Positions 5,064 through 64,000 of a stretch of DNA of 64,000 bases are shown in pieces. Within the stretch, counting starts at the first letter, position 1. Each line of letters begins with the position of its first letter. The notes beneath the pieces are model-generated. The model was given only the letters and a program-made list of their open reading frames with translations, was not told the origin of the DNA and did not search any database. Origin of the DNA: Thioalkalivibrio paradoxus (GTDB lineage Bacteria; Pseudomonadota; Gammaproteobacteria; Ectothiorhodospirales; Ectothiorhodospiraceae); the NCBI GenBank assembly GCA_011390565.1, contig JAABSC010000010.1, positions 3,107 to 67,106 of the forward strand. Direction: 5' to 3'. A program made the position numbers and the translations under genes.

Positions 5064-5753
5064 TCAGCGGCGCAGGAAGCGCAGCCAGGCCCAGATGTTG
5101 AGCAGGCTCATCAGCGACTGCGCGACATAGGTGTAGGCCGCGGCCTTCAGAATGCGGTGCGCGTGCCGGTAATCGGTTTCGTACAGGTAGCCGCCGTCGC
5201 GCAGGATGGGCAGGGCACGGCCGAAGCTGGCATCGAGTTCCGTCGGCAGCGTGACGAAGTGCACGATCGCGGCCAATCCCATCGACAACAATCCCGCAAG
5301 CAGGAACATCATCCCCGGGGCGGGGTGGCGGGTGATGATGGTGATCACCGGGATCGCCAGCATCATGAACGCGCCGAGACGCTGACCCCCGGAGGCCCAG
5401 CGCACCAGTTCGCCGCGCAGGCGCAGGGGCGTGTAGCCCTCCGCATGCTGGATGGCATGTCCCACTTCGTGCGCGGCTACAGTGATCGCGGTCAGCGAAC
5501 AGCTGTTGTAATTGCCTTCCGAGAGGCGTACGGCCCGGGCTTCGGGGTCGTAGTGATCGCCCTGCTCGGTGGCCTCCACGGCGACGTCGCGCAACCCGCG
5601 CTCGTTCAGCAGGTGTCGGGCAAGTTCTCCGCCGGTGCCCTGGTAGCGGTCGGCCGGCTGGCTGTATTTCTGCATCGTCCGGCGCACCCACCAGCCCGGG
5701 CCATACGTGACCAGGAAGATGAGCGGAATCAGCAGGATGAGCAGGCGTGCCAT
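5064..5753 (-). CDS. Putative neutral zinc metallopeptidase (YugP-like, membrane)
   Basis: GDHYDP, AAHEVGHAIQH (HExxH), VTLPTELDAS, AAAYTYVA. Confidence 0.88.
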   Translation of the reverse strand: MARLLILLIPLIFLVTYGPGWWVRRTMQKYSQPADRYQGTGGELARHLLNERGLRDVAVEATEQGDHYDPEARAVRLSEGNYNSCSLTAITVAAHEVGHAIQHAEGYTPLRLRGELVRWASGGQRLGAFMMLAIPVITIITRHPAPGMMFLLAGLLSMGLAAIVHFVTLPTELDASFGRALPILRDGGYLYETDYRHAHRILKAAAYTYVAQSLMSLLNIWAWLRFLRR

Positions 5754-5821
5754 CGCGCTACTGTACGGCCTCGGTCCGTCGCCTGCCGTTTTCCACCCGA
5801 ATCCCGCGTGATGTCCGGCGC

Positions 5822-8122
5822 TCAGGTTTCATCGGCCGCGTCGGGATCATGCATGTTCCGGGTCTTCAGCGGCGGTTCGGGTGTTGTGTGTGCCGTCCCG
5901 GGCGCGGGTGCGGGCGCCGGCCCGGGCCCGGCCGTCGACTGCAGCAACTGGACATGCGCGGGCGGCGCATCGCCCTTCTTGTCCTCGCCGAAGTACAGGG
6001 TCATGTGCGGGAAGGGGATCTCGATGCCGGCTGCGTCGAAGTGACGTTTCACCAGCCGGTTGTAGGCGCGCCCGATGCCCCATTGCGCGCCGGGCAGCGT
6101 CTTGATGCGCACACGCACGTTCACGGAGCTGTCCGCGAGTGCGGTGACCCCGTGCACTTCGAGATCGCCGACGATGTTCGGACCGTGATCCGGATGCGAG
6201 CGCAGTTCCTCGAAGGCCTCGGACAGGCGCTGGACGACTTCGTCGGTGTCCTCCCGGTAAGCCACGCCATATTCGGCCAGGTGGTAGCTGAAATCGCGGG
6301 TGAAGTTGGAGACCGTGGTCACGGACGAGAACGGGATGACATGGAAGGTGCCCGAGAGGTCGCGCAACCCCAGTGAGCGGATCGTCAACTTCTCGACCGT
6401 GCCGGTGACCCCGGCCACCTGAACGACTTCGCCTGTGTTGATGGCGTTTTCGAACTGGATGAAAACCCCCGTGATGATGTCCTGGACCAGCGTCTGCGCG
6501 CCGAAGCCGATCGCCAGGCCCAGCACGCCGGCACCCGCCAGCAACGGCCCGATATTGATGCCGATCTCGGCCAGCACGATCATCGCGGCCATCACCGTGA
6601 GTGCGATCGCCAGGGCATTGCGGAAGATCGTGAGCAGGGTGGTTGCGCGCGCGCTCGGCGCGACGCGACCGCTCCGGGGAGTGAGCCGGTGTTCGATCCA
6701 GCTGGCCGCGACCAGCCAGAACAGTAACGTGATCCCGAGAATCATCGCGACGGACAGCGTTTTTGTCAGCAGAGCCGAGCCGTGGTCGGATTGCAGCCAG
6801 CCGCCCAGATTGAACAGACCCCAGGCATCGGCGATCACCGCCAGTACGAGCACCAGGATGACCGCCCGCATCACCTTCAGCGCGGTGGGAATGTAGGCGT
6901 TCAGCCGTTCCTCGAGCTTCGGAAAATTCTCCCGTGTTTCCGCGGGCAGGCGGATGCGCCGGCTGATGAACTGCGTGAGCACGGCCGCGACAAAGAACCC
7001 GACGAGAATCGCCGCCAGGCTCTGCCCGGTGGCGATGGCCATGAACGGCAGCGCGTCTTCCGGCCGGGTGACGCTGACCAAAGCCAACGCGCCGAAGTAG
7101 AGCAGGGCCAGCCAGTGCCAGGTGCGCGCGAGGATCGAGACACTGAAGCGCATGAAAGACAGCGAACTCTGGTCTCCGTAGGCCTGGATCCGCTGGCACA
7201 CCCGCGCGCGGTTCTGCAGGATGATGGCGACCGCGTAACTGAAGGCGACCAGCATCACCAGCAAACCCAGTGTACGGCCGGCTGCGGGGGAGATCTCGGT
7301 TTTGACGATGGGTGTCGCCAGCAGCAGGCCGTAGCCGATGAAACCCACCAGTCGGCTGATCCAGGCGTTCCAGTACGCCGCTTCTTCACCTGCCATGGGC
7401 AGCACGCGCAGGCCCGTGTAGCGGCTCGCGAACAGGATCCGCACCAATGCCTTGGTGACTTCGATCATCAGGAACGCGTTCAGGAACAGGGCATGGCGGG
7501 TCAGCATCGTGCCGGTGTCGCCGAACGCGAACAGCGCAAGGGCGTATCCCGCAAGCCAGGCCAGCACCACCACCAGCAGGTCCGCGGCGGCCGCCAGCAG
7601 AATCGCGGGAACGGTGCGGAGCAGGGCAAGACCGCGTTGGGATTTCAGCACCCAGCCGTCGAGTACGGCGAACACGGGTCGCGCCAGCCGGCGCAGCAGC
7701 AGGAAGAGCCCGACGGTCACGACGATCAGAATGAGGAGATCGAGGGCGGCGAGACCGGCGACGTTCCAGTCGGCGGACCGCAGGGCTGCCATCACGTCCT
7801 GCCCGATCGCCTGCAACTCCTGCAGTTCGGCCACGAAGCCTTCGGCGATCTCCTGGGTGAGTTGGGCAATACGGTTTGGAAGCGACGGAACAGGCGGCTC
7901 GGCGGACTCGGCCGTGGCATCCTCGGCCGAGGCGGCGCGCAGCGCTTCGAGCAGTCGGGCCCGGCTCTCGGGATCTTCCAGTGCGGAAATCAGGGCCTGT
8001 ACGGTGTCGGTTTCCTGTGCCTGGACCGTGGCCGCCATCGCGGTGGAGCAGGCGATCAGCAGGATCCAGGCGAGTGCGTGCCGGAGCAAGGGCACCCATC
8101 CCGGGTGCGGCTGTCGGGACAT
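5822..8122 (-). CDS. Large MscS-family mechanosensitive channel (YbiO-like)
   Basis: Signal peptide, many TM helices, GAGVLGLAIGFGAQTLVQD, GTVEKLTIRS, GIEIPFP; start 8122 or 8134. Confidence 0.9.
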   Translation of the reverse strand: MSRQPHPGWVPLLRHALAWILLIACSTAMAATVQAQETDTVQALISALEDPESRARLLEALRAASAEDATAESAEPPVPSLPNRIAQLTQEIAEGFVAELQELQAIGQDVMAALRSADWNVAGLAALDLLILIVVTVGLFLLLRRLARPVFAVLDGWVLKSQRGLALLRTVPAILLAAAADLLVVVLAWLAGYALALFAFGDTGTMLTRHALFLNAFLMIEVTKALVRILFASRYTGLRVLPMAGEEAAYWNAWISRLVGFIGYGLLLATPIVKTEISPAAGRTLGLLVMLVAFSYAVAIILQNRARVCQRIQAYGDQSSLSFMRFSVSILARTWHWLALLYFGALALVSVTRPEDALPFMAIATGQSLAAILVGFFVAAVLTQFISRRIRLPAETRENFPKLEERLNAYIPTALKVMRAVILVLVLAVIADAWGLFNLGGWLQSDHGSALLTKTLSVAMILGITLLFWLVAASWIEHRLTPRSGRVAPSARATTLLTIFRNALAIALTVMAAMIVLAEIGINIGPLLAGAGVLGLAIGFGAQTLVQDIITGVFIQFENAINTGEVVQVAGVTGTVEKLTIRSLGLRDLSGTFHVIPFSSVTTVSNFTRDFSYHLAEYGVAYREDTDEVVQRLSEAFEELRSHPDHGPNIVGDLEVHGVTALADSSVNVRVRIKTLPGAQWGIGRAYNRLVKRHFDAAGIEIPFPHMTLYFGEDKKGDAPPAHVQLLQSTAGPGPAPAPAPGTAHTTPEPPLKTRNMHDPDAADET

Positions 8123-9095: not shown

Positions 9096-9851
9096 ATGTC
9101 CGAACCGGAAGGGATTCAGGCGCCAAGTGTCGATCCAGACGAGGTGGCGCGCTACCAGCGGCTGGCCGCGGCCTGGTGGGATGAAGCGGGGCCGTTCTGG
9201 CCATTGCACGTACTGAATCGGGTACGCACCGACTGGATCGTGCGGCAGCTGGCACGTGAACTCGGGCGCGATCCGGACGCGCCGAAACCGCTGGAAGGTC
9301 TGCGGGTGCTGGATATCGGCTGCGGGGGCGGGATTCTGTCGGAGAGCATCGCGCGGCACGGCGCCCACGTGCTCGGAATCGACGTTACGCCACGCAACAT
9401 CACGATCGCGCAAGACCATGCGGCCGGGCAGGCGCTGGACGTAAGCTATCGGCAGGTGGCGCTCGAGGATCTCGACGAGATGCCCTTTGACGTGGTCCTG
9501 AACATGGAGGTCATCGAGCACGTGGTGGATGCGCAGGCCTTCCTGCAGCGCAGCCTGGGCATGGCGCGCCCCGGCGGGTTCGTGGTGCTGGCGACGCTGA
9601 ACCGGACGCTGGCTTCGTTCGTGGCCGGGATCGTTGGCGCGGAGTACATCTTCCGGCTGCTGCCGCGCGGAACCCATCAGTGGCGACGTTTCGTGCGTCC
9701 GTCGGAACTCGTCCGGCCGCTGGAGGCTGCCGGCGGTCGAATCGTCGCGCGCTCCGGGGTCGCGGTGAATCCTCTGACCCGCCGCATGCGCCTGAGCCGA
9801 TACGAGGGCATCAATTACATGCTGATGGCCCGGATGCCCGAGGCCGTCTGA
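9096..9851 (+). CDS. ubiG: Ubiquinone biosynthesis O-methyltransferase UbiG
   Basis: WWDEAGPFWPLH, VLDIGCGGGILSE, EVIEHV, GTHQW; start at ATG 9096. Confidence 0.88.
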   Translation: MSEPEGIQAPSVDPDEVARYQRLAAAWWDEAGPFWPLHVLNRVRTDWIVRQLARELGRDPDAPKPLEGLRVLDIGCGGGILSESIARHGAHVLGIDVTPRNITIAQDHAAGQALDVSYRQVALEDLDEMPFDVVLNMEVIEHVVDAQAFLQRSLGMARPGGFVVLATLNRTLASFVAGIVGAEYIFRLLPRGTHQWRRFVRPSELVRPLEAAGGRIVARSGVAVNPLTRRMRLSRYEGINYMLMARMPEAV

Positions 9852-9883
9852 AATCCTTCATCCGTTATCCACGGGGATAGAAC

Positions 9884-53123: not shown

Positions 53124-53214
53124 GGAGAGATGGCCGAGTGGTCGAAGGCGCTCCCCTGCTAAGGGAGTATGGGTCAAAAGCCCATCGAGGGTTCGAATCC
53201 CTCTCTCTCCGCCA
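53124..53214 (+). tRNA. tRNA-Ser(GCT)
   Basis: GGAGAGA acceptor stem, anticodon stem CTCCC/GGGAG around CT-GCT-AA, long variable arm, GGTTCGAATCC, encoded CCA. Confidence 0.97.
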
Positions 53215-53458: not shown

Positions 53459-56275
53459 CTACGCGTTCCCGACGCGGAGTTCATCCCGATCCTCGGTGCG
53501 ACGATCTCGGAGCAGTATTTCAACCAAAACCGAACCGTCTTCCGGCGGTTCCAGGTGGAAGCCCACCTTGCGGCAAACACGCTGCATGCCCTCGTTCTCG
53601 AAGAGAATCTCGGCCGTGATGCGCACGATTCCCTCTTCCCGTGCGATGTCCGTGAGACGTCTGAGCAGTTCGGTCCCGATCCCCTGCCGCTGATCCGCAT
53701 CGTTGATCAGCATCGAGAATTCCGCGTGGCTGCTGTCGTGCAGCCGACTCCAGCGTCCGACGCCGAGGATTCGATGTTGTCCATCAGTGGGGTCCCGATA
53801 GTCCACCACCAGGGCCATCTCGCGGTCATAGTCCGTGAAGCAGATGCGCCTGAGTCTTTCGTGCGCGACCCGCTGGCCCATCTGCATGATCTGGAAATAG
53901 CGGAGATAGACACTGCGTTCCGAGAGCGTCTGGTGGAAACTGACGATCAGAGGCTCATCCTCGGGCCGGATCGGTCGTATCGTGACCGTCCGCCCATCGT
54001 GCAGCGTCCATTCGGACACGTACTGGGCCGGATACGGTCGGATCGCCGGCGCCGGCAAACCGGTGAGGTCGTAGTCGGTGCCGTACAGCACCACGCGTGC
54101 ATCCAGGGCGTTGAACGTGCCCGTGCCCGCATCCCCGTTGCCCGGCGTGGCAAGAAGCGGGTTGATGTCGAGTTCGCGGATCTCCGGGTGCTCGACGATC
54201 AGTTGACTGAAGCGCACCAGCAGGTTTTCGAGTTGGGTCAGATCGACCGCGGGACGCCCGCGTACGCCCTTGAGGGCCTCGTGGATGCGCGTCTGTTCCA
54301 TCAACCTGCGCGCCAGGGTCGTGGTCAGGGGTGGCAGGGCCACCGCGGTGTCGCGCAGCACCTCCACCATCTGGCCGCCCGCGCCGAACAGCAGCACCGG
54401 CCCGAACTGGCTGTCCGGGCTGCTGCCCAGTATCAGCTCGTAGCTTTCGTCGCGGTCCACCATGGGTTGCACGGTCACGCCCTGAAAATGATGCGCACCG
54501 GCCCGCTCGGAGACGGATGCCTGAATTCCGGCAAAGGCCTCGGCAACCGCCCCGGCGTGCGTCAGGTTCAGGCGCACGCCGCCCACGTCGGTCTTGTGGG
54601 TCAGGGTCTCCGAGTGCAGCTTCACCACCACCGGGTAGCCGATGGCCTCGGCTTCCCGCACCGCGTCTTCGGCGGTTGTGGCAAGGCGTGTCTCGACCAC
54701 CGGGATGCCATACGCCTGGAGCAGTGCCTTGGACTCGAACTCGGTGAGCAGCGTCCGCCCGGTCCGTCGTGCCGCTCCCAGCAACTGGCGCACGCCCGCC
54801 TGGGCCACACCGTTTTCTTTCCGGCCCATCGCAAGGGTGGGCGTCTCATAGAGGGCCTGCAGGTTGCAGTGATGGCGCCACATCAGGTTGAACAGGTGTG
54901 CTGCGGCATCGGGTTGCGCGTAGGTGGGGATGCAACCCTGGTTCAGGATACTGGTGCCGGGATAAACCTCGGCGCCCCCCATCCAGCTGGCGAGCACGGG
55001 CTTTTTCAATCCTTCGGCCTCGCACTTGATCAGCTCTGCCGTTCGGGTCGGATCGGTCATGGCCTGCGGAGTCAGGATCACGAGCATGCCATCGGAATTC
55101 GGGTCTGCCGCTGCACGCTCGAAGGCCAGCGCATACCGCTCCGGGTCCGCGTCGCCGAGGATGTCGATGGGGTTGCCATGACTCCAGTGTGGCGGCAGCA
55201 CCTCGTTCAATGCGCTGACCGTGTCTTCGTGCAGCGGGGTCAGTTCGCCTCCGCCCTGGATCAGCGTGTCCGTACTCAGGACGCCGGGTCCGCCAGCATT
55301 GGTCAGGATCGTCAGGCGCGGACCCTGGGGCAGATGGACCTGTTTGGCGAGGACTTCCGCCACGTCGAACATTTCCGCGAGGGAATCGACGCGCAGGACG
55401 CCGCAACGGCGGAACGCGGCATCGAGCACACGATCGCTCCCGGCGAGCGAGCCGGTATGGGAGGCGGCGGCCTTGGCGGCGGCCTCGGTTCGGCCGGCCT
55501 TGATGACGATGATCGGCTTCGTCAAGGCCACCTCGCGGGCCGCGGACAGAAACTGGCGCGCATCCCCGATGCTTTCCATGTAGATGACGATGCTGCGGGT
55601 GTGCGGATCATCGCCCAGGTAGTAGATGAGATCGCCCCAGTTCACATCCAGCATGGAGCCGATCGACGCGAAGTTGCTGAAACCCACGTTCTCGCGGCGG
55701 CTCCAGTCCAGCACGGCGGTGCCAATCGCGCCGCTCTGGCTGATGAATGCGACATGGCCCGGTTGCGCCATCACGCCGGCGAAGGTCGCGTTCAATCCGG
55801 TGCGAGGGCTCATCACGCCCAGGCAGTTCGGCCCGATCAAGCGCATCGCACTGTTGTGCAGGGCCTGGCGGATCTCGTCTTCCAGGGCGACGCCGTCGGG
55901 ACCGATCTCGCGAAAGCCCGCCGAGATCACGATCGCGCCCCGTACGCCATTGGCGACACATTCACGGATCACGCCGGGTACGGTGGGAGCGGGCGTCGCC
56001 ACGATCACGAGATCCACCGTGTCCGGGACCTCCGCGATGGACGGGTAGGCCCGGATGCCGAGTACGCTGCGCTTCCTGGCGTTCACCGGGTAAACGGTAC
56101 CGCCGAAGGGGTGGCTGAGCAGGTTCCAGAGCAGGGTGCGGCCAACGCTTCCGGGCCGGTCGGTGGCCCCGATGAGGGCGATGGACCGCGGCGTGAAAAT
56201 CGCCCGCAGGTGCAGGTAGTCGGAACGCAGGATGTCGTAGGAGGGATCGGTGTTTGCGGCGCGGCTGACAGTCAT
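53459..56275 (-). CDS. NDP-forming acyl-CoA ligase-like protein fused to a C-terminal GNAT acetyltransferase (Pat/Pka family)
   Basis: [31 protein letters not shown]-grasp, ELDINPL, then IRPIRPED...[10 protein letters not shown]; start MTVSRA at 56275. Confidence 0.93.
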
Positions 56276-56518
56276 GGGGATCCCGGGGGCTGAGTCAGTT
56301 GGTTGGATGGGTGATGCACGGCCGGTGTGTGCGCTGGCGTGTCCAGGACGAGGCGGTATTTGCGCTAGCCGGCCATGTTGCAACGCAGCATACCAAAGTA
56401 CCGGGTTCGGCAACACCGACCGTCCGTACACCCGAGCCTTCGGACCCCACGCGACGGGTCCCGCGCACCGTGCATCCATTGCGTCCAACGCCCGTCCGGG
56501 CAGGAAAGCACGTTTGGG

Positions 56519-59341
56519 CTATTGTTCCGCGGATTGACCTCGTGTCCCCGCCCGGGACGGGTCGGCCACCGGAACCCCGGGCACGAGGAAACGGGATTCG
56601 AAGGTCTCGACCGGCAACGGCTTGCTGAAGAGGTAACCCTGCATCTCGTCGCAGCCCAGCAGGCGCAGAAGTCGCGACTGCTCCTCCGTTTCGACGCCCT
56701 CCGCCACCACGTTGAGATTGAGCGCATGCGCCAGGGTGATGATGGTCGTCACCAGCGCCTGTCCCTGGGAGGAGTGCGTCATCGCCCGGACGAACGATAG
56801 ATCGATCTTCAGCGTGTCGACCGGCAGCTTCGCCAGGTAACTGAGCGACGAGAAGCCGGTGCCAAAGTCGTCGATTGCGATCGTCACGCCCATGGCCCGT
56901 ACCGCCCGCAGGGTGGCGATGGTCTGTTCCACGTCCGCCATGATCAGGCTCTCGGTGAGTTCCAGCTCAAGGCCTGCCGCAGCGCGAACATCGACGCTGA
57001 GCGCTTCCTCGAGCTCGGCGATGAACCCGATGCTGCGCAGTTGCAGCGCCGATACGTTCACCGCGACGCGTACCGCAGGCAGGCCCGAGTCGCACCAGCG
57101 CAGGTGATCCGCAATCGCCTTGTTCAGCGCCCAGCGTCCCGCCGCGAGGATGAGCCCGGTCTCCTCCAGAAGCGGGATGAACCGGTTCGGCGGCACCTGC
57201 CCGGTACGCGGATCGTTCCAGCGGATCAGCGCCTCGACACCCACGAGCGTGCCGTTCGTGAAGCTCACTTTGGGCTGGTAGTGCAGCACAAACTCCTCAC
57301 GGTCGATCGCCTGGCGCAACTGGCTCTCCAGGATCAGTTTGCCGGCCACGGCTTCGGTCATCTTCCGCGAATAGAACAGGTAGCGGTCGCCACCGGTCTT
57401 GGCATTCTTGAGCGCCGCCTCGGCGTTTCGGAACAGGACCTCGGCTTCCTTGCCGTCCTCGGGAAACAGCGCGATGCCGGCCTTGGCGGCGACACGATAG
57501 ACGTTTTCCTGCAGTTGGAACGATTGGTTATCGAAGACTGCCACCAGCCTCTCGAGCCGCAGCGTCATGTCCTCCTTGGTCCGTATTTCGGGCAGCACGA
57601 CCGCGAACTGGTCCGCCCCCACCCGCGCGAGCAGACGGGCGTCCCCGGTGAAGTGGGTGAGTCGCTCGGCCACGTGCCGCAATAACGCGTCGCCGGCCCG
57701 GCGGCCGAAGCTGTCATTGAAGTTCTTGAAATGCTCGAGGTCCATCAGAAAGATCGCGAGCGAATGCCCGGCGGTTTCGGCGACCTTCATGTGCTGCATC
57801 ACGCGCTCGATGAACAGGGTTCGGTTCGCCAGCCCGGTGAGCGGATCGTAGTACGCGAGTGCGTCGAGCTGGTCCCGCTTGCCGATATGGTCGATCGCGA
57901 ACGCGATGTCGTCGGCCAGTTCGTGCAGAAGCTTCAGTTCCCCCTCGTCGAAGAAGTCGGTTTCACGCGCATACAGGCCGAGCACGCCGACCACCGCATC
58001 GTCGATGATCAACGGCAGGCTGACGAGCGAGCGGATTCCCTGCTCGAGATGAGCACGCTTGTCGAGGATCCGCGAGTCGTTGGCGACGTCGTTGACCACG
58101 ACAGCCGTGCGTTCGCGCACCGCGACTGCGGAGGGCTCGTAACCGTTCGGCGCGTCGTCCTGAAGCGTCATGCGCGCTTTGACATCGACGAGAAGCTGTT
58201 CGGTCCCCGCCGAGGCAGCCGGCTCAAGCTTCATGGAAGTGAGATCGGCAAGGCCGATCCACGCCAGGCGGAATCCGCCGGCCTCGACGGCGATGCGGCA
58301 GGCTTCCTTGAACAGCTGGTCGCGGTTGCGCGCGCGTACAATCAGGCCGTTGACCTGGCTTAACACCGCGTTTACCCGGTTCAGGCGCAGGATATGGAGT
58401 TCGGCGCGTTTGCGCGCGGTGATGTCGGTGGCGACTCCGGCGATACGAACGATGCGGCCGGTGGCGTCGCGCACCGGGAAGTTGCGGGACTCGATCCAGC
58501 GGATCGACCCATCCGGGCGCAGAATTCGGTATTCCAGTTCGAACGTGCCCGTCCGCAACCCGTCCTGCGTGTTCTTCAGCGTCGTGGCACGGTCCTCGGG
58601 GTACAGGGTGTTGGCCCACGAGTCCGGATCGGCGTACAGGCTCTCGCAGCTGCGGCCCCAGATCTCCGCGTAGGCGGGGCTCACGTACAGGATGCGGCCT
58701 TTGCTGTCGCGCAGAAAGAACACGTCGCGGATGTTCTCGGCCATCTCGCGGAAGCGCGCCTCGCTGATGCGCAGGGTCTCTTCTGCACGCCTTTTTTCCG
58801 AGATGTCGATGTGCATCACGACCGCGCCGTTCACGCGCTCGCCGGCTAACGGCGCGACGCTCATCAGGAACCAGCGTTTCTCGGTCGGGGCGTTGCAGGG
58901 GTATTCGAGCATGAACTGCTTCTTCTCGCCCGCGAGCACCGCGCGGATGCCGGCGGCGGCCTCGTGTGCTTCGGCAGAGTCCTTTCCACGCGCCCGGTCG
59001 CAAACCGCGAGGTAGTCGACGCCGACTTCATAGCCCGGGGGCTGTCCGGCATTGTCGTCGCCGAAATGGCGCCACGCCTCGTTCACGGAAACAATGACGC
59101 CCTGGGCGTCGAGCAGGACAATGTGAGCCGGAAGCGCGTTGAGCACGGCGGCCTGCTTCGTCACCTCGATGTGGCGCAGCCGCTCCTGTGCGCTGAGGAG
59201 CAGGAAGGGCCTGCCGTCGGCGTCGCTCACCGAGTCCACCTCGCCCTTGGTGAGCCACTCCAGGCGCTGCCCGGTCTCGTGCAGCGTGGCAATGAGCGCG
59301 GAGATTTCCTCTTGCGCAGTCCCTTTCGTGGAACGCTTCAT
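56519..59341 (-). CDS. PAS-PAS-GAF-GGDEF(degenerate)-EAL protein, probable c-di-GMP phosphodiesterase
   Basis: YDPLTGLANR, GADQF at the GGDEF position, VEALIRW, DDFGTGFSSL, LKID, AEGVE, MQGYLFSKP. Confidence 0.93.
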   Translation of the reverse strand: MKRSTKGTAQEEISALIATLHETGQRLEWLTKGEVDSVSDADGRPFLLLSAQERLRHIEVTKQAAVLNALPAHIVLLDAQGVIVSVNEAWRHFGDDNAGQPPGYEVGVDYLAVCDRARGKDSAEAHEAAAGIRAVLAGEKKQFMLEYPCNAPTEKRWFLMSVAPLAGERVNGAVVMHIDISEKRRAEETLRISEARFREMAENIRDVFFLRDSKGRILYVSPAYAEIWGRSCESLYADPDSWANTLYPEDRATTLKNTQDGLRTGTFELEYRILRPDGSIRWIESRNFPVRDATGRIVRIAGVATDITARKRAELHILRLNRVNAVLSQVNGLIVRARNRDQLFKEACRIAVEAGGFRLAWIGLADLTSMKLEPAASAGTEQLLVDVKARMTLQDDAPNGYEPSAVAVRERTAVVVNDVANDSRILDKRAHLEQGIRSLVSLPLIIDDAVVGVLGLYARETDFFDEGELKLLHELADDIAFAIDHIGKRDQLDALAYYDPLTGLANRTLFIERVMQHMKVAETAGHSLAIFLMDLEHFKNFNDSFGRRAGDALLRHVAERLTHFTGDARLLARVGADQFAVVLPEIRTKEDMTLRLERLVAVFDNQSFQLQENVYRVAAKAGIALFPEDGKEAEVLFRNAEAALKNAKTGGDRYLFYSRKMTEAVAGKLILESQLRQAIDREEFVLHYQPKVSFTNGTLVGVEALIRWNDPRTGQVPPNRFIPLLEETGLILAAGRWALNKAIADHLRWCDSGLPAVRVAVNVSALQLRSIGFIAELEEALSVDVRAAAGLELELTESLIMADVEQTIATLRAVRAMGVTIAIDDFGTGFSSLSYLAKLPVDTLKIDLSFVRAMTHSSQGQALVTTIITLAHALNLNVVAEGVETEEQSRLLRLLGCDEMQGYLFSKPLPVETFESRFLVPGVPVADPSRAGTRGQSAEQ

Positions 59342-59631
59342 TCGGGCTCGCCGGGCAGTCCGAGAGCCTGTATCAGCAGCACCCTCTCGCTCAGGGATCC
59401 CACGATCCGCACGGGAGCCGGCAGCGGGCCGAGTTTGATCAATGTCGGCGTCATGAAAATACCATCGGCCAGCGCCCGCTGAGGCTCGCGGAATACGTCC
59501 ACAACCTCGATCGTATGTCGACCCTCCAGATATTCCCGACAGAGCGCGCCGAGGTTGGACGTAGCCCGCGCCGAGTTCGACGCGTGACCGGCCACATAGA
59601 GCCGGAAAGTGAATTTTTCGCGCTCCATCAC
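59338..59631 (-). CDS. kaiB: KaiB-family protein
   Basis: FRLYVAG.ASNS, IEVVDV..EP..A, TPTLIK, VRIVGSLS. Confidence 0.92.
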   Translation of the reverse strand: MMEREKFTFRLYVAGHASNSARATSNLGALCREYLEGRHTIEVVDVFREPQRALADGIFMTPTLIKLGPLPAPVRIVGSLSERVLLIQALGLPGEPE

Positions 59632-61412
59632 GGCTTGTCCTGTTTCTTTCTGGCTCCGCCGGGATCGGCGCCGCGCAACTCGTCCAGGCGCGAGTGCTTG
59701 GTCACGAGACTGCTTTTGCGCTCGACGTTCGTCCGCGCAAGCAGCGCTTTCTCGACCCTCTTGGCCTCGAGTTCCACGCCCAGCGCCCTCAGCTGCACCT
59801 CAAGCTCTGCCACCTCGGCTTCGATTTTTACGCGCTTGAGTTTTTCCGCAGCGTCTGCCATACCTGCCGCCGCATGCTCGCCGCTTTCCTTCTGCCAGCG
59901 CAGCGTACCCATGAGCACCTGTCCTCCCAGGCTGTAGGTGTCTGCAAGAGTCACGCCCTCGTCGCTGAGGATCAGTTCGCGCACCTGGTTTGAGTGATCC
60001 GTACCGCGTGACTTGATGATCGACAGCCCGCGGTTGCGTTCTCCCGCCTGCACCACGTCGCTCAGATGGATCGAGGTATCGGCGAGCGTGGAAATCTGCC
60101 GTGCGGTGCTGCCTTCGGGGGGAGTGGAGGTCTCGTTGAGCAGACTGCTGCACAGCAGCGTGATGCCCTCGGCCTTCGACCAGTTGATGAGCCGCTCGGC
60201 CACGCTGTTGGCGCTCATCGAGTCCCCGGGATTGTGCCAGGCCGACACCGGGTCGATCACCAGGCAGCGTGCCTTGTGCTCCTTCGCGAGCGCCAGGATA
60301 TTCGCGAAGTAGATCTCCGCATTCCCGTTGGTGATGCGCACGGACGCCATGCGCAGCTGCCCGCTCTTAACGTAGCGCGCGAGGCGAATCCCGACCGAGG
60401 CGAGGTTGCGGATGACCTCGTTGGCATCGGAATCGAAGGTCGCGAACAGCGTGCGCTCGCGGCGCTTGCACGCGGCTTGTGCGAAGGCGCCGCACAACGT
60501 GGTCTTGGCGGTACCTGGAGAGCCCTCGATCATTATGGTCGCGCCGCGGTAGTACCCACCGTCCAACATGGTATCGAGTCGCTGCACACCGCTGGAGACG
60601 CGCTCGTCGCTGATTTCGAGCGAGCCGCGCTCGAGCGGCCGTGCGACTTCGACCTCGAATCCACGTCTGCCGATGATGAACGGCGACTCGTTCTCGTCGA
60701 AGCTCGTTCCCCGGTACTTCTGAACCCGCAGGCTGCGCTGCGACACGCCCAGCACCACCTTGTGGTTCAGCGTCACCCCACAGTCCACCATGAACTGCAT
60801 GAACGCGAGGGGCTCGCGGCCGATGGCGGAAATCTCGTCGCCGGCCGCCTTTGCGGTGATGATTGCGGTCAGCTCGCGCGCGAGCAGCCAGTCGTGCAGT
60901 CGATAGATCTCCGTGCGCCTGGCGGTCGGGTCGGCGAGCAGTGCAAGCAGGACATCGAGGGCGTCGAAGACGATGCGCCGCGCTCCGGTCGACTCGATCA
61001 GTGCCTGCAATGCGGCCAGCATGCCCCCGAGATCGAAGTCACCCGACTGGATCAGATCGGCCGCCGGCTGCGCATCAACGAAAGAGAGCTTTCCTTCCAG
61101 CTCGGGGAGATTCCAGCCGAAGCTTTCCACGTTCGCGCGAATGCGCTTCGAGTGCTCTTCGAAGGCAACGAAAATGCCGGGTTCCTTCATTTCGCGCAGG
61201 CCGTGCACGAGGAACTCGAGCGCGAAGAGGGTCTTGCCCGAGCCCGGTCCGCCCAGCAGCAACGTGGTGCGTCCGCGCGGGAGCCCCCCCCGAGTGATGT
61301 GATCGAAGCCGACGATGCCGGTCGGCGCCTTTCGGGGCGAGCCGCTTACGGACGTGTCGGTATCGGGTTTGCGGGAAGCGTTCACGCGGTCTGGTCCCCC
61401 ACTGTTGAGCAT
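59628..61412 (-). CDS. kaiC: KaiC-family double-domain ATPase/autokinase
   Basis: PTGIVGFDHITRGGLP, GPGSGKT, KYRGT, GSPGTAKT, ISTLADT, KSRGTDHSNQVRE; start at ATG 61412. Confidence 0.93.
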   Translation of the reverse strand: MLNSGGPDRVNASRKPDTDTSVSGSPRKAPTGIVGFDHITRGGLPRGRTTLLLGGPGSGKTLFALEFLVHGLREMKEPGIFVAFEEHSKRIRANVESFGWNLPELEGKLSFVDAQPAADLIQSGDFDLGGMLAALQALIESTGARRIVFDALDVLLALLADPTARRTEIYRLHDWLLARELTAIITAKAAGDEISAIGREPLAFMQFMVDCGVTLNHKVVLGVSQRSLRVQKYRGTSFDENESPFIIGRRGFEVEVARPLERGSLEISDERVSSGVQRLDTMLDGGYYRGATIMIEGSPGTAKTTLCGAFAQAACKRRERTLFATFDSDANEVIRNLASVGIRLARYVKSGQLRMASVRITNGNAEIYFANILALAKEHKARCLVIDPVSAWHNPGDSMSANSVAERLINWSKAEGITLLCSSLLNETSTPPEGSTARQISTLADTSIHLSDVVQAGERNRGLSIIKSRGTDHSNQVRELILSDEGVTLADTYSLGGQVLMGTLRWQKESGEHAAAGMADAAEKLKRVKIEAEVAELEVQLRALGVELEAKRVEKALLARTNVERKSSLVTKHSRLDELRGADPGGARKKQDKP

Positions 61413-61796
61413 GGATTCCCCGACCAATTATTTCGTGTGAGCGCGATTCCGTATGTGCGGTAAGCAACGTATGACAGCGCGCCTCCCAGCACGTCGACCC
61501 TGCGCGGGACGGCGGGGCAGGGGTGGGCCCTGCTTTCGCGGGCGCGCGCCCGTCGCTTGGGAATGGTCGGGCACACGATGGGCTGAATGTGTCGGAGAAA
61601 CGGTGGCTTGTGTTCGGTAGCGCACGGAAATGCTTTCTCCCGATTCATATCCTTTTCCAACGACAACTCGAATCTCGGGAAGCTTTCGCGACTCATCGCA
61701 AGGGACGCAAGCATGAGCTGCTGAAGTCGGTGGGTTCGACTGCAGGAGTAGTCGAAACGATATGTCATCACCACACACTACTTTGTCGAGGGCGCT

Positions 61797-63470
61797 ATGT
61801 TGATAGCCAGACTTTGTATTCTTTCCGGGGCGCTGATGTTGAGCACGAGCGCGATCGCCCAGCAGAATCTGCCGGACGCGGGGGGTCAGCTTCAGCAGAT
61901 CAGACCGGGTCCGTCCATCGAGCCCCCGCCCCCGGAGTTCCGTTTTCAAGAACGCAGTTCCCCCGAAGCGCCTGCCCCGAGCGACGTGCGACTGCTCGTC
62001 AACTCGCTGCATGTGACCGGTCATACCTTGTTCACCGAAGACGAACTGCTCGCAGCCACGGAGTTTGTTCCGGGACGGGAGCTGTCGCTTGCCGATCTTC
62101 AGGTCCTGGCGGCGAGAATTTCTGCCTACTATCAGGAACGCGGCTTTTTCGTTGCTCAGGCCTACATTCCCGCCCAGGAAATCGTGGACGGCGCCGTCAC
62201 GATCGCCGTACTCGAAGGCCATTTCGGCGATATCACACTGCGCAACGAATCGGGTCTTTCCGACCGACGCGTGCGGACCATTCTCGATGGGCTGGAGAGC
62301 GGCGACACGATCGCCCTGCAGCCTCTCGAAAGGCGGCTACTGCTTCTGTCGGATGTTCCCGGCGTGGTCGTGAGTTCCACCCTGGCGCCCGGAGCGGCGG
62401 TGGGCGAATCCGATCTGATCGTCTCCGTGACGCCGGGGCGCCGCGTGACCGGCAGTGTCGAAGCGGATAACGCCGGAAGCTATTACACCGGTCAGAACCG
62501 TATCGGCGGCACGGTCAATTTCAACAATGTGACCGGCAACGGCGACGTCGCATCCCTGCGTGGATTGACGTCGGGTTCGGGAATGCAATATGGACGCGCC
62601 ACGTATCAGATCCCCCTGGGAAAGGGGAATGTCGGCATTTCCTACACCGCGTTGGACTACGAACTCGGCAAGGAACTCAGTGTTCTGGATGCCCACGGCA
62701 CGGCGCGAATCGTCGGCCTTTATGGCAGCTATCCCCTGATCCGTTCGCGCAACACCAATCTCTACCTGCTGGGGGGATACGACGACAAGCGGTTTGATGA
62801 TCGCGTCGATGCGACGTCGACGATTACGGAAAGGAAGGTTCGGGTCGGAAGCCTGGGTGTCGCCGGCAACCACCGGGACCAACTGGGTGCCGGTGGTTGG
62901 ACCAGCTACTCCGTCATTGGGTATTCCGGTGACGTCGACATCATTACGCCGGAGGCGCTGGCGTTCGATCAGCAGACGGCCCGGACCGACGGTGGTTTTT
63001 CAAAAATCCAATATGAACTGGCGCGCACGCAGAGTCTGACGGAAACGGTCTCTTTTCTCGCTTCGATCAACGGACAGTTTGCCTCGGGCAATCTGGACAG
63101 CTCCGAGAAAATCGGCATGGGCGGCCCGTATGCAGTGCGCGGATACCCGGTGGGCGAAGGCTTTATGGACGAGGCGCACATCGTTCACCTCGAATTGCGC
63201 AAGCGTCTGAGGTTTTTCGATACGAGCCCTGGCCAGTTGCATGTGTTGGGTTTTTATGATTACGGAAGGGGCACCATCAACAAGGACCCCTGGACCGACG
63301 AAGACAATCACAGGAATTTGCGCGGCGCGGGCGCAGGGCTCATCTGGGAGGATTACGGCAACTACAGGTTGAGTGTCACGTACGCGGAGCGACTCGGTAG
63401 CGAGCCGGTGACCTCGATTCCGGATAACCCCTCCGGTCAATGGTGGTTGCACGCCATCAAATATTTCTGA
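61797..63470 (+). CDS. ShlB/FhaC/HecB-family outer-membrane transporter (TpsB)
   Basis: Signal peptide, POTRA (ARISAYYQERGFFVAQAYIPAQEI), VRGYP loop, C-terminal aromatic residue (KYF). Confidence 0.93.
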   Translation: MLIARLCILSGALMLSTSAIAQQNLPDAGGQLQQIRPGPSIEPPPPEFRFQERSSPEAPAPSDVRLLVNSLHVTGHTLFTEDELLAATEFVPGRELSLADLQVLAARISAYYQERGFFVAQAYIPAQEIVDGAVTIAVLEGHFGDITLRNESGLSDRRVRTILDGLESGDTIALQPLERRLLLLSDVPGVVVSSTLAPGAAVGESDLIVSVTPGRRVTGSVEADNAGSYYTGQNRIGGTVNFNNVTGNGDVASLRGLTSGSGMQYGRATYQIPLGKGNVGISYTALDYELGKELSVLDAHGTARIVGLYGSYPLIRSRNTNLYLLGGYDDKRFDDRVDATSTITERKVRVGSLGVAGNHRDQLGAGGWTSYSVIGYSGDVDIITPEALAFDQQTARTDGGFSKIQYELARTQSLTETVSFLASINGQFASGNLDSSEKIGMGGPYAVRGYPVGEGFMDEAHIVHLELRKRLRFFDTSPGQLHVLGFYDYGRGTINKDPWTDEDNHRNLRGAGAGLIWEDYGNYRLSVTYAERLGSEPVTSIPDNPSGQWWLHAIKYF

Positions 63471-63531: not shown

Positions 63532-64000
63532 ATGAACCGCAAATATCTGTGTGTCCCGAGCAGCCGCGGTCGCCGGTTACCGCCCATGTGGACGAAAATC
63601 GAGAAAAGCGGTGTCAGGCGATCGGTCGGCGCAGAAGTCCCGACCTGGCGATTGCGCTATATCGTTCAGGCGATGACCCTCGCTTTGTTCGCGACCCTGG
63701 GTTCAACTGCCCAGGCTCAGCCTCAGGGCGGGGTTGTTTCGGCGGGTACCGCGACGATCAACGATAGCATTGCGGGCCAGATGACCATCACCCAGGACAC
63801 CGCCAGAACGGCGATCAACTGGAACAGCTTCAGCATCGGCTCGGGTAACTCGGTCGAATTCATCCAACCGGGCAGCAGCTCGATCGCATTGAACCGCGTT
63901 ACGGGATCCAACCCTTCGGAGATCATGGGCAGCCTGTCGGCCAACGGCCAGGTCTTTCTGCTGAATCCCAACGGTGTGCTGTTCGGCACGGACGCCCAGG
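63532..64000 (+). CDS. Filamentous haemagglutinin-like TpsA exoprotein (3' truncated by window)
   Basis: Open frame from ATG 63532 to the window end, translated by hand: long signal peptide ending AQA, then INWNSFSIG, LNRVTG, ANGQVFLLNPNGVLFG (TPS domain). Confidence 0.92.
   Translation, partial: MNRKYLCVPSSRGRRLPPMWTKIEKSGVRRSVGAEVPTWRLRYIVQAMTLALFATLGSTAQAQPQGGVVSAGTATINDSIAGQMTITQDTARTAINWNSFSIGSGNSVEFIQPGSSSIALNRVTGSNPSEIMGSLSANGQVFLLNPNGVLFGTDAQ

What the first reader, a model, noticed from the sequence alone, without database searches (positions are those of the whole stretch)
60087..60560. KaiC CII domain keeps the Ser-Thr phosphosites but has lost the catalytic glutamate pair
Seen: CI has GPGSGKT and FEE. 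CII has GSPGTAKT (Gly to Ala before Lys) and FDSD (60426-60437) where S. elongatus KaiC has YEES (E318/E319). The phosphosite-equivalent IST (60087-60092; S431/T432) and the arginine-finger KSRG are retained. Known: E318 is required for CII autokinase activity. Inference: CII either uses an Asp-based or slower chemistry, is phosphorylated in trans, or is a nucleotide-binding scaffold, so the mechanism should differ from known clocks.
Basis: partly seen in the sequence, partly recalled or inferred. Interest (0 to 1): 0.65.

Follow-up and report, generated by a model that had tools for sequence, protein, structure and literature searches.

The report
KaiC with remodelled CII active site
This bacterial KaiC clock-type protein really lacks both catalytic glutamates in its second ATPase ring. 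The change is not decay: it is a conserved, two-step redesign shared by a monophyletic clade in dozens of genomes, and whether these proteins still phosphorylate themselves is open and easy to test.

Summary

**What the gene is**
- The minus-strand ORF 59628-61427 (599 aa) is a double-domain KaiC. It heads a translationally coupled kaiC-kaiB-PAS/GAF/GGDEF/EAL operon.
- CI is canonical: GGPGSGKT and FEE.
- CII reads GSPGTAKT and F-D332-S333-D334 where S. elongatus and R. sphaeroides KaiC have E-E. It keeps the Walker B Asp, T441, S446-T447 and K472/R474.

**How the change arose**
- It is not a private defect. Tail-extended KaiC homologues fall into three nested tiers:
  - EE tier: GTGKT with Ser-Ser sites, which includes KaiC-RS.
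  - DE tier: GT[A/S]K with Ser-Thr sites.
  - DSD tier: a monophyletic clade that includes this protein and also has an invariant Glu337.
- CII is at least as conserved as CI in the DSD tier, so the site was remodelled under selection.

**Mechanism**
- Most likely (about 0.5): CII still binds ATP and does slow, Asp332-based phosphotransfer to Ser446. CI and KaiB then gate a c-di-GMP phosphodiesterase.
- Main rival (about 0.3): CII is a non-catalytic nucleotide-sensing ring. In its favour, this lineage shows extra CII-specific drift, and one orthologue has lost Asp332 as well.

**Novelty**
I found no description of this variant in the papers I could search. I class it as a new variant of a known kind.

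The parts
59628..61427 (-). kaiC homologue, 599 aa from TTG 61427 (alternative ATG at 61412). Two KaiC/RecA-type domains plus a C-terminal helical tail.
   Evidence: Pfam PF06745 twice, 293.9 bits. NCBIfam NF006799 at 449 bits against a cut-off of 408. Best solved-structure match 8dba, E 1.8e-100. Foldseek TM 0.75-0.92 to KaiC-RS.
61230..61253 (-). CI Walker A GGPGSGKT (aa 59-66), canonical.
   Evidence: 118 of 121 close homologues are identical.
61155..61163 (-). CI F89-E90-E91, the intact catalytic Glu pair.
   Evidence: E90 and E91 are invariant in alignments A1 and A2.
60501..60524 (-). CII Walker A GSPGTAKT (aa 302-309), with Ala307 where GK[ST] normally has Gly.
   Evidence: At this position Ala is 99% in the DSD tier and 78% in the DE tier, while Gly is 100% in the EE tier. 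The Mcm2-7 Walker A boxes read the same way: GDPGTAKSQ.
60426..60437 (-). F331-D332-S333-D334, in place of the Y/F-E-E-S catalytic Glu pair of CII.
   Evidence: Gap-free alignments to 8dba and 8zn5. These residues form the loop after strand 326-330 in the model. In the DSD clade set, defined by Asp at 332 and S/A/T at 333, position 333 is Ser in 87% and position 334 is Asp in 88%.
60417..60419 (-). E337, a clade-specific invariant Glu. It is mostly Gln in the other tiers. It is the third residue of helix 335-343, for which D334 is the N-cap.
   Evidence: 165 of 165 in the DSD tier; Q 59 / E 24 in the DE tier; Q 25 of 37 in the EE tier. Secondary structure.
60252..60263 (-). CII Walker B L-V-I-D392, retained.
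   Evidence: D392 is 100% in the DSD and DE tiers.
60231..60233 (-). N399, equivalent to S. elongatus R385 and KaiC-RS E369, the residue that modulates the catalytic carboxylate. It is Lys or Arg in 90% of the clade but Asn here.
   Evidence: The role of R385/K375/E369 is from PMC2777353 and 10.64898/2026.04.01.715469.
60087..60107 (-). Phosphosite loop T441-A-R-Q-I-S446-T447, equivalent to T426, S431 and T432.
   Evidence: S446 is Ser in 161/165. T447 is Thr in only 126/165 (Ala 22, Ser 7). Position 441 is Ser or Thr in 157/165.
60003..60014 (-). K472-S-R474-G, the trans-acting Lys and Arg finger, retained.
   Evidence: K472 and R474 are 100% in the DSD and DE tiers.
59676..59906 (-). C-terminal extension predicted as one 77-residue helix (aa 508-584), the KaiC-RS-type coiled-coil tail.
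   Evidence: AF2 helix H508-584. Foldseek aligns 561 columns to dodecameric KaiC-RS 8fwi. HMMER aligns query residues 33-569 to residues 7-539 of 8dba.
59338..59631 (-). kaiB (97 aa). Its GTG start overlaps the kaiC TGA stop (GTGA).
   Evidence: Pfam PF07689, E 7.5e-18. Solved-structure hits to KaiB 4kso and 8fwj_M. Overlap read.
56519..59341 (-). PAS-GAF-GGDEF-EAL protein (940 aa). Its ATG overlaps the kaiB TGA stop (ATGA). The GGDEF signature reads GADQF, while the EAL and DDFGTG motifs are intact, so it is likely a c-di-GMP phosphodiesterase.
   Evidence: Pfam EAL 4.8e-72, GGDEF 3.7e-37, GAF and PAS. Motifs read from the translation. Overlap read.

Best explanation
**Shown**
- The gene encodes a KaiA-independent, KaiC-RS-like KaiC with a C-terminal coiled-coil tail. 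It is the first gene of a kaiC-kaiB-phosphodiesterase operon.
- Its CII catalytic centre is a derived, selectively maintained variant. The P-loop is GxxGTAKT. Asp332 replaces the general-base Glu (E318). Ser333 replaces the Mg-ligand Glu (E319). Asp334 and an invariant Glu337 flank the next helix.
- The variant arose in two steps: EE to DE together with the Ala P-loop, then DE to DSD. It defines a monophyletic clade whose members come from several bacterial phyla.

**Inferred**
- CII still binds ATP-Mg. The Walker A Lys/Thr, the Walker B Asp and the trans Lys/Arg finger are all invariant.
- CII acts as a slowed, Asp332-based autokinase and ATPase whose main acceptor is Ser446.
- The canonical CI ring supplies the ATPase step that lets KaiB bind.
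- The KaiB-KaiC state controls the co-translated PAS-GAF-EAL phosphodiesterase, so the module works as an hourglass or metabolic switch on c-di-GMP rather than as a circadian oscillator.
For: - **Identity and fold:**
- **Residue equivalence:** gap-free alignments to KaiC-RS, whose E302/E303 are the experimentally defined CII catalytic pair (PMC10076222), and to 8zn5.
- **Clade-wide conservation:**
- **Nested origin:** in the FastTree phylogeny the 165 DSD sequences share an ancestor with only 3 others. That group sits inside a 276-sequence Asp-first clade that excludes every EE sequence.
- **No relaxation of CII:** the ratio of CII to CI pairwise identity is 1.06 in the DSD tier, 1.21 in DE and 1.00 in EE.
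- **Catalytic periphery kept:**
  - K308, D392, K472 and R474 at 100%.
  - S446 at 98%.
  - Ser or Thr at 441 at 95%.
  - Lys or Arg at the R385-equivalent in 90% of the clade. That residue is reported to neutralise the catalytic carboxylate, which implies there is still a carboxylate to regulate.
- **Asp can work here:** Pattanayek et al. report both E318A and E318D as arrhythmic but say only E318A lacks phosphoryl transfer.
- **The Ala P-loop is an ATPase Walker A box:** Mcm2-7 subunits read GDPGTAKSQ.
- **Operon coupling and conservation:** the overlapping stop/start codons are. The conserved kaiC-kaiB-output gene order across 80 genome loci is.
Against: - No biochemistry exists for any Asp-first KaiC that I could find.
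- Ser333 removes the Glu that ligates Mg ion A, so the two-metal kinase geometry cannot be the same.
- Thr447, the first site phosphorylated in S. elongatus, is replaced in 24% of the clade.
- The Ectothiorhodospira lacustris orthologue (72% identical) reads F-S-S-D, so it has lost Asp332 as well.
- The query and its 93%-identical relative differ from the clade consensus at 13 of 133 highly conserved CII positions, including W452S and K399N, but at only 1 of 118 in CI (Fisher p 0.0018). That pattern fits weakened catalytic constraint in this particular lineage.
Confidence: 0.5

Rival explanations
1. CII is a catalytically inert pseudo-kinase ring. It binds ATP or ADP to hold the hexamer or dodecamer together and to sense energy charge, but it neither hydrolyses ATP nor phosphorylates Ser446. 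Timing or switching would rest on the CI ATPase and KaiB alone.
For: - Both catalytic Glu are gone, including the Mg-A ligand.
- Thr447 is variable.
- One orthologue has also lost Asp332.
- There is a CII-specific excess of substitutions in the query lineage, 13 against 1.
- From my own knowledge, not checked here: in E. coli RecA, replacing the catalytic Glu with Asp (E96D) cuts ATP hydrolysis strongly while ATP binding is kept.
Against: - Asp at position 332 is near-invariant: only 2 of the 121 closest sequences (query included) lack it.
- Ser446 is kept in 98%, and the basic residue that modulates the catalytic carboxylate in 90%.
- CII is overall as conserved as, or more conserved than, CI.
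- An inert ring would not obviously need to keep an acid, an acceptor Ser and its regulator together.
Confidence: 0.3
2. Ser446/Thr447 are phosphorylated in trans, by the second canonical KaiC of this genome or by another kinase. CII would be only a substrate and nucleotide-binding platform.
For: This genome has a second kaiB-kaiC-hybrid kinase locus with an intact CII E-E pair. The phosphosites are retained.
Against: - In 13 of 20 genomes carrying this KaiC type, no other KaiC homologue was found at E <= 1e-20. Some of these are incomplete metagenome-assembled genomes.
- KaiC phosphorylation is an inter-subunit reaction inside one ring (PMC2777353).
- The two paralogues are only about 32% identical, so mixed rings are unlikely.
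- The conserved partner genes are KaiB and a c-di-GMP enzyme or histidine kinase, not a Ser/Thr kinase.
Confidence: 0.05
3. The motif changes are decay of a gene on its way to loss, or assembly or sequencing errors.
For: - The operon is patchy: within the order, only this genome and one genome of another genus carry it.
- Two relatives have an in-frame stop: Massilia sp. Root418 (TAG) and one Gammaproteobacteria MAG (TGA).
Against: - The frame is open for 599 codons and is translationally coupled to kaiB.
- The same residues recur in the 120 closest protein clusters, from independent metagenome and genome sources.
- CII conservation is high.
Confidence: 0.02

Closest known systems
KaiC of Rhodobacter (Cereibacter) sphaeroides, KaiC-RS (PDB 8DBA, 8FWI/8FWJ, 8DB3; Pitsawong et al. 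2023, PMC10076222)
   Same: - Best sequence hit (E 1.8e-100) and best fold hit (TM 0.75-0.92).
- Double domain with a roughly 50-80-residue C-terminal helix of the coiled-coil, dodecamer-forming type.
- No KaiA.
- kaiC-kaiB gene order followed by a signalling protein.
- Canonical CI.
   Different: - KaiC-RS has GVAGAGKS and E302/E303 in CII. Its CII hydrolysis is abolished by E302Q/E303Q.
- Its sites are Ser-Ser, and it has Glu at the R385-equivalent.
- The query has GSPGTAKT, D-S-D, Ser-Thr and Asn (Lys/Arg in its clade).
- The query's output is an EAL phosphodiesterase rather than a histidine kinase.
Synechococcus elongatus KaiC (PDB 2GBL and others) and its E318A/E318D mutants (Pattanayek et al. 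2009, PMC2777353)
   Same: - Same fold (TM about 0.72-0.88).
- Same phosphosite triad: T426, S431 and T432 correspond to T441, S446 and T447.
- Same trans Lys/Arg finger.
- The natural D332 reproduces the engineered E318D change.
   Different: - No KaiA and no buried A-loop system.
- The E319 Mg ligand is replaced by Ser.
- Ala in the P-loop.
- A long C-terminal tail.
- The engineered E318D kills rhythmicity in S. elongatus, whereas here Asp is the selected state.
Cyanobacterial KaiC2 and R. palustris KaiC (Schmelling et al. 2017, PMC5520375; Ma et al. 2016, PMC4794148)
   Same: KaiA-independent, tail-extended KaiC encoded next to kaiB and a PAS signalling protein. Proposed hourglass-type timers.
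   Different: These are described as keeping the catalytic EE residues in both domains, with Ser-Ser (TSS) sites. The query clade has neither.
kaiC-kaiB-GGDEF/EAL gene contexts (De Luca et al. 2011, PMC3164672) and KidA, a multi-PAS protein that binds KaiB (PMC9478674)
   Same: - A GGDEF/EAL protein directly downstream of kaiC/kaiB in non-cyanobacteria was already noted.
- In KidA, the PAS domains bind KaiB.
   Different: Those reports do not address the CII active site. I found that the c-di-GMP-type output is concentrated in the DSD tier: 20 GGDEF/EAL against 7 kinase, compared with 1 against 13 in the DE tier.
Mcm2-7 Walker A box GDP[G/S]T[A/S]KSQ (PMC2952866)
   Same: The same P-loop wording, PGT-A/S-K-S/T, with Ala or Ser where most P-loops have Gly, in the Walker A boxes listed for the ATPase active sites of the Mcm2-7 helicase.
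   Different: MCM is an AAA+ protein, not a RecA-type domain. This is a resemblance of motif only.

Membership tests
KaiC family (double-domain KaiC/RecA-type ATPase; Pfam PF06745, NCBIfam NF006799) | Two tandem KaiC-type P-loop domains | tested here: met
   PF06745 matched in two stretches, 293.9 bits. NF006799 at 449.4 bits, over its cut-off of 408. Fold match to KaiC structures.
KaiC family (double-domain KaiC/RecA-type ATPase; Pfam PF06745, NCBIfam NF006799) | CI Walker A GxxxxGK[ST] plus the catalytic Glu-Glu pair | tested here: met
   GGPGSGKT and F-E90-E91.
KaiC family (double-domain KaiC/RecA-type ATPase; Pfam PF06745, NCBIfam NF006799) | CII Walker A GxxxxGK[ST] | tested here: not met
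   GSPGTAKT has Ala307 in place of the Gly before Lys. This is conserved in 99% of the clade.
KaiC family (double-domain KaiC/RecA-type ATPase; Pfam PF06745, NCBIfam NF006799) | CII catalytic Glu-Glu pair (E318/E319) | tested here: not met
   D332-S333 by gap-free alignment to 8dba and 8zn5, and by position in the model.
KaiC family (double-domain KaiC/RecA-type ATPase; Pfam PF06745, NCBIfam NF006799) | Phospho-acceptor Ser/Thr pair plus the T426-equivalent in CII | tested here: met
   T441, S446 and T447.
KaiC family (double-domain KaiC/RecA-type ATPase; Pfam PF06745, NCBIfam NF006799) | Autokinase, autophosphatase and ATPase activity | not testable with these tools
   Needs purified protein.
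Cyanobacterial circadian KaiC (TIGR02655 circ_KaiC; KaiABC oscillator) | Score over the equivalog cut-off, and KaiA present | tested here: not met
   TIGR02655 scores 235.5 bits against a cut-off of 546.25. No KaiA (PF07688) in the genome.
KaiC-RS / KaiC2-type KaiBC hourglass (Pitsawong et al. 2023) | A C-terminal extension of about 50 aa that forms a coiled coil | tested here: met
   Predicted single helix aa 508-584. Aligned to the tail of 8dba and 8fwi. Dodecamer formation itself was not testable.
KaiC-RS / KaiC2-type KaiBC hourglass (Pitsawong et al. 2023) | Ser-Ser phosphosites | tested here: not met
   Ser-Thr in the query and in 76% of its clade. Ser-Ser is typical only of the EE tier.
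KaiC-RS / KaiC2-type KaiBC hourglass (Pitsawong et al. 2023) | CII catalytic pair E302/E303 that drives fast constitutive autophosphorylation | tested here: not met
   D-S at these positions. Phylogenetically, the query lies in an Asp-first clade that excludes all EE sequences.
KaiC-RS / KaiC2-type KaiBC hourglass (Pitsawong et al. 2023) | Adjacent kaiB and a downstream signalling output gene | tested here: met
   kaiB overlaps the kaiC stop and the PAS-GAF-GGDEF-EAL gene overlaps the kaiB stop. The gene order is conserved across related loci.

The most novel reading that the evidence does not exclude
The DSD-type CII ring may be a true pseudo-kinase. It would be a conserved ATP/ADP-sensing ring with no phosphoryl transfer. 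This widespread KaiBC clade would then run as a phosphorylation-free, CI-only energy-charge switch wired mainly to c-di-GMP turnover. Ser446, Asp332 and Glu337 would be kept for nucleotide or Mg sensing rather than for catalysis.
Probability: 0.3. Interest if true: 0.7.

Novelty: new variant of a known kind. Interest (0 to 1): 0.55.

Why it matters
- **The assumption it challenges.** Work on KaiC evolution and on 'proto-clocks' treats the two Glu-Glu pairs as universal and as the basis of kinase, phosphatase and ATPase activity.
- **What was found.** A monophyletic KaiBC clade, drawn from Beta- and Gammaproteobacteria, Acidobacteriota, Gemmatimonadota and Verrucomicrobiota, has replaced the CII pair while keeping the acceptor Ser. 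The sample comprises 165 sequences, including about 40 species genomes.
- **If these proteins still autophosphorylate.** They would show that a RecA-type kinase can run on an Asp base without the second-metal Glu. They would also give natural 'slow' variants for dissecting KaiC chemistry.
- **If they do not.** They would be the first Kai systems that signal without a phosphorylation cycle.
- **Output.** In either case the clade links Kai timing modules to c-di-GMP, and so to biofilm and motility decisions, in non-phototrophs.
- **Testability.** Cultured carriers exist: Paucibacter sp. XJ19-41, Methylomonas sp. LL1 and Ectothiorhodospira lacustris. The question is directly testable.

Tried and rejected
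- **Residue-level structural superposition.** Structure prediction and fold search return no coordinates. I could only use the secondary-structure register and the gap-free sequence alignments. Whether Glu337 reaches the active site therefore stays open.
- **An experimentally studied Asp-first KaiC.** The Legionella pneumophila kai paper, where autophosphorylation was reported, is not held. I could not obtain that sequence, so I do not know which tier it belongs to.
- **Literature searches.** I searched for KaiC with catalytic glutamate, aspartate, E318D and GGDEF. I found no description of the Asp-first or DSD variant. The Pseudomonas KaiC-like preprint does not mention Walker motifs or glutamates at all.
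- **Private decay or artefact.** Rejected on conservation.
- **The Ala P-loop as a sign of a dead site.** Rejected because the Walker A boxes listed for the Mcm2-7 ATPase subunits read the same way, and because this genome's second KaiC carries GTAGSAKT in its otherwise canonical CI.
- **Trans-phosphorylation by a second KaiC.** Disfavoured, because most carriers have a single KaiC.
- **Glu337 as a relocated catalytic Glu.** Considered, not established. In the model it is the third residue of the helix capped by Asp334, which could be purely structural (a capping-box arrangement).
Full report
**1. Observation**

- The region lies inside a minus-strand ORF, 59628-61427, of 599 aa.
  - CI GGPGSGKT (aa 59-66) and F-E-E (aa 89-91).
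  - CII GSPGTAKT (aa 302-309, 60501-60524).
  - F-D-S-D (aa 331-334, 60426-60437).
  - S446-T447 (60087-60092).
  - K-S-R-G (aa 472-475).
- The protein is a KaiC:
  - Pfam KaiC/ATPase is matched twice, at 293.9 bits.
  - NCBIfam NF006799 scores 449 bits, over its cut-off. The cyanobacterial equivalog TIGR02655 is far below its cut-off.

**2. Residue equivalence**

- The best solved relative is R. sphaeroides KaiC (8dba, E 1.8e-100).
- In that alignment, and in the one to the designed cyanobacterial-type KaiC 8zn5, there is no gap between the Walker A Lys and the motif. F-D-S-D pairs with F-E-E-A and with F-E-E-S.
- The two Glu of KaiC-RS are the E302/E303 pair, whose Gln substitution abolishes CII hydrolysis (PMC10076222).
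- In S. elongatus, E318 is the general base for T432/S431 and E319 ligates Mg ion A (PMC2777353).
- So D332 corresponds to E318, S333 to E319 and D334 to S320.
- An AlphaFold2 model built on a 60-sequence alignment (pLDDT 83.8) gives the same register as CI. Strand 326-330 is followed by the loop 331-334 and then helix 335-343. In CI, strand 84-88 is followed by F89-E90-E91-H92 and then a helix.
- The model also predicts one 77-residue C-terminal helix (aa 508-584).
- Foldseek ranks the dodecameric KaiC-RS structures first (TM 0.75-0.92, 561 aligned columns including the tail).

**3. Not a private defect: three nested tiers**

- *Close homologues.*
  - A search of the 5.8-billion-protein collection returned 7063 relatives at E <= 1e-30. 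The 120 best are 65-93% identical to the query.
  - In those 120 plus the query, the P-loop has Ala before Lys in 120 of 121, and F-D-[S/A/T] stands at the Glu-pair position in all but two.
- *Wider sampling.* I used one representative per 50%-identity cluster, together with 80 genome loci. Tail-extended KaiCs fall into three types:
  - EE tier: GxxGTGKT, F-E-E-S and Ser-Ser sites. This tier includes KaiC-RS.
  - DE tier: GxPGT[A/S]K[T/S], F-D-E and Ser-Thr sites.
  - DSD tier: GxxGTAKT, F-D-S-D and mostly Ser-Thr sites. This tier includes the query.
- *Phylogeny.* In a FastTree phylogeny of 313 sequences rooted on this genome's second KaiC:
  - The 165 DSD sequences share an ancestor with only 3 others.
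  - That group lies inside a 276-sequence Asp-first clade that contains no EE sequence.
  - The inferred history is therefore EE to DE, roughly together with the Gly-to-Ala P-loop change, and then DE to DSD.
- *Clade-specific Glu.* The DSD tier also has Glu337, present in 165 of 165. It is mostly Gln elsewhere.

**4. Selection**

- CII is not relaxed at clade level. Mean pairwise identity of CII relative to CI is 1.06 in the DSD tier, 1.21 in DE and 1.00 in EE.
- K308, D392, K472 and R474 are 100% conserved. S446 is at 98%, and Ser or Thr at 441 is at 95%.
- The residue equivalent to S. elongatus R385 is Lys or Arg in 90% of the DSD tier. R385 is reported to damp the catalytic carboxylate.
- These are features of an active site that has been retuned, not abandoned.
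- Two observations point the other way:
  - Thr447 is replaced in 24% of the clade: Ala 22, Ser 7, and others.
  - The query lineage is itself unusual.
    - The query and its 93%-identical relative differ from the clade consensus at 13 of 133 highly conserved CII positions but at only 1 of 118 CI positions (Fisher p 0.0018).
    - The CII changes include W452S, T301E and K399N.
    - The Ectothiorhodospira lacustris orthologue reads F-S-S-D.

**5. Context**

- kaiC, kaiB and a 940-aa PAS-GAF-GGDEF-EAL gene are joined by GTGA and ATGA stop/start overlaps.
- The GGDEF signature is degenerate (GADQF), while the EAL and DDFGTG motifs are intact. This is read directly from the translation. The output is therefore probably a c-di-GMP phosphodiesterase.
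- The genome has a second, canonical kaiB-kaiC-hybrid kinase locus, two kaiB genes, no kaiA and no photosynthetic reaction centre.
- Across 80 related genome loci the kaiC-kaiB-output order is conserved. The output gene differs by tier:
  - DSD tier: GGDEF/EAL in 20 loci and a histidine kinase in 7.
  - DE tier: GGDEF/EAL in 1 locus and a histidine kinase in 13.
  - These counts are not corrected for relatedness.
- That a GGDEF/EAL gene can follow kaiC-kaiB was already noted in 2011 (PMC3164672).
- In 13 of 20 genomes carrying a DSD-type KaiC, it is the only KaiC homologue.
- Within this organism's order, only this genome and one genome of another genus have it. This points to horizontal acquisition.

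**6. Mechanism**

- *What supports a working CII.*
  - Nucleotide binding by CII is strongly supported by the invariant Lys/Thr, the Walker B Asp and the trans Lys/Arg.
  - The Ala P-loop is not a defect. The Walker A boxes listed for the Mcm2-7 ATPase subunits read GDPGTAKSQ (PMC2952866). This genome's other KaiC has GTAGSAKT in a CI domain that keeps E-E.
  - Asp at the general-base position is compatible with phosphotransfer. Pattanayek et al. state that E318A and E318D are both arrhythmic and that 'the former' lacks phosphoryl transfer.
- *Preferred reading (confidence about 0.5).* CII is a slowed, Asp332-based autokinase and ATPase acting mainly on Ser446. The canonical CI ring gates KaiB binding, as in KaiC-RS. 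The KaiB-KaiC state controls the phosphodiesterase.
- *What remains inferred.* ATP binding, Asp catalysis, Ser446 as the acceptor, dodecamer formation and control of the phosphodiesterase are all inferred, not shown.
- *Main rival (about 0.3).* CII is a non-catalytic nucleotide-sensing ring. Support comes from the loss of the Mg-ligand Glu, the variable Thr447, the F-S-S-D orthologue and the CII-specific drift of this lineage.
- *Minor rivals.* Trans-phosphorylation (about 0.05) and decay or artefact (about 0.02) are poorly supported.

**7. Comparison and novelty**

- The protein works like, and is related to, the KaiC-RS/KaiC2-type KaiBC hourglass. It fails two of that group's defining features, the E302/E303 pair and the Ser-Ser sites, and it sits in a separate clade.
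- Published surveys state that catalytic EE residues are conserved in cyanobacterial KaiC1/2/3, in R. palustris KaiC and in all reconstructed ancestors.
- None of my searches found a description of the Asp-first or DSD variant. I could not read subscription-only papers, notably the Legionella kai study.
- I class it as a new variant of a known kind. A KaiC specialist would find it moderately surprising, and it is cheap to test in cultured carriers.

Noticed in passing
G000 contig C2, locus L009 8029-9612 (-), with kaiB at 9533-9862 (-) and a hybrid histidine kinase at 5645-8026 (-): A second, shorter KaiC (527 aa) in kaiB-kaiC-kinase order. Its CII is canonical (GATGTGKT, F-E-E-S), but its CI Walker A reads GTAGSAKT, with Ala before Lys. 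Its phosphosite reads I-A-T, so Ser431 is replaced by Ala.
   Followed up: partly
window 56519-59341 (-): The output protein has a degenerate GGDEF signature (GADQF) but intact EAL and DDFGTG motifs. It is probably a c-di-GMP phosphodiesterase only. Its first ~60 residues lie ahead of the first PAS domain and match no domain family.
   Followed up: partly
window 59628-61427 (-), CII half (aa 275-505): The query and its 93%-identical metagenomic relative differ from the clade consensus at 13 of 133 highly conserved CII positions, including W452S, T301E and K399N. In CI they differ at only 1 of 118 (Fisher p 0.0018). CII is evolving faster in this particular lineage.
   Followed up: yes
protein P0009 (Ectothiorhodospira lacustris KaiC, 72% identical): This cultured relative reads S-F-S-S-D, so it has lost Asp332 as well. 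It still keeps Q-I-S-T, the Ala P-loop and E337. It would serve as a natural 'no acid at the base position' control.
   Followed up: partly
search of the organism's order: The DSD-type kaiC occurs in only this genome among about 35 genomes of its genus, and in one genome of a sister genus. It looks like an accessory, probably horizontally acquired operon.
   Followed up: partly
loci L010-L089: The gene after kaiB differs by tier. In the DSD tier it is GGDEF/EAL in 20 loci and a histidine kinase in 7. In the DE tier the counts are 1 and 13. The loss of the second Glu therefore coincides with a shift of output to c-di-GMP enzymes. These counts are not corrected for phylogeny.
   Followed up: partly
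L028 (Massilia sp. Root418) 5980-7755, and the genome holding L026: These two DSD-type kaiC genes carry one in-frame stop each (TAG and TGA), splitting the gene. They are possible pseudogenes or recoding sites.
   Followed up: no
window 61797-63470 (+) and 63532-63999 (+): Divergently from kaiC lies a ShlB/FhaC-type two-partner-secretion transporter (POTRA plus ShlB domains). It is followed by the start of what I read, from its sequence and without a family search, as a haemagglutinin-like exoprotein. G+C falls to 0.58-0.61 in this stretch.
   Followed up: partly
window 53124-53214 (+) and 53459-56488 (-): A tRNA-Ser(GCT) gene, and a 1009-aa protein of Pat type (NDP-forming acyl-CoA synthetase domains fused to a GNAT acetyltransferase), lie just downstream of the Kai operon.
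   Followed up: partly
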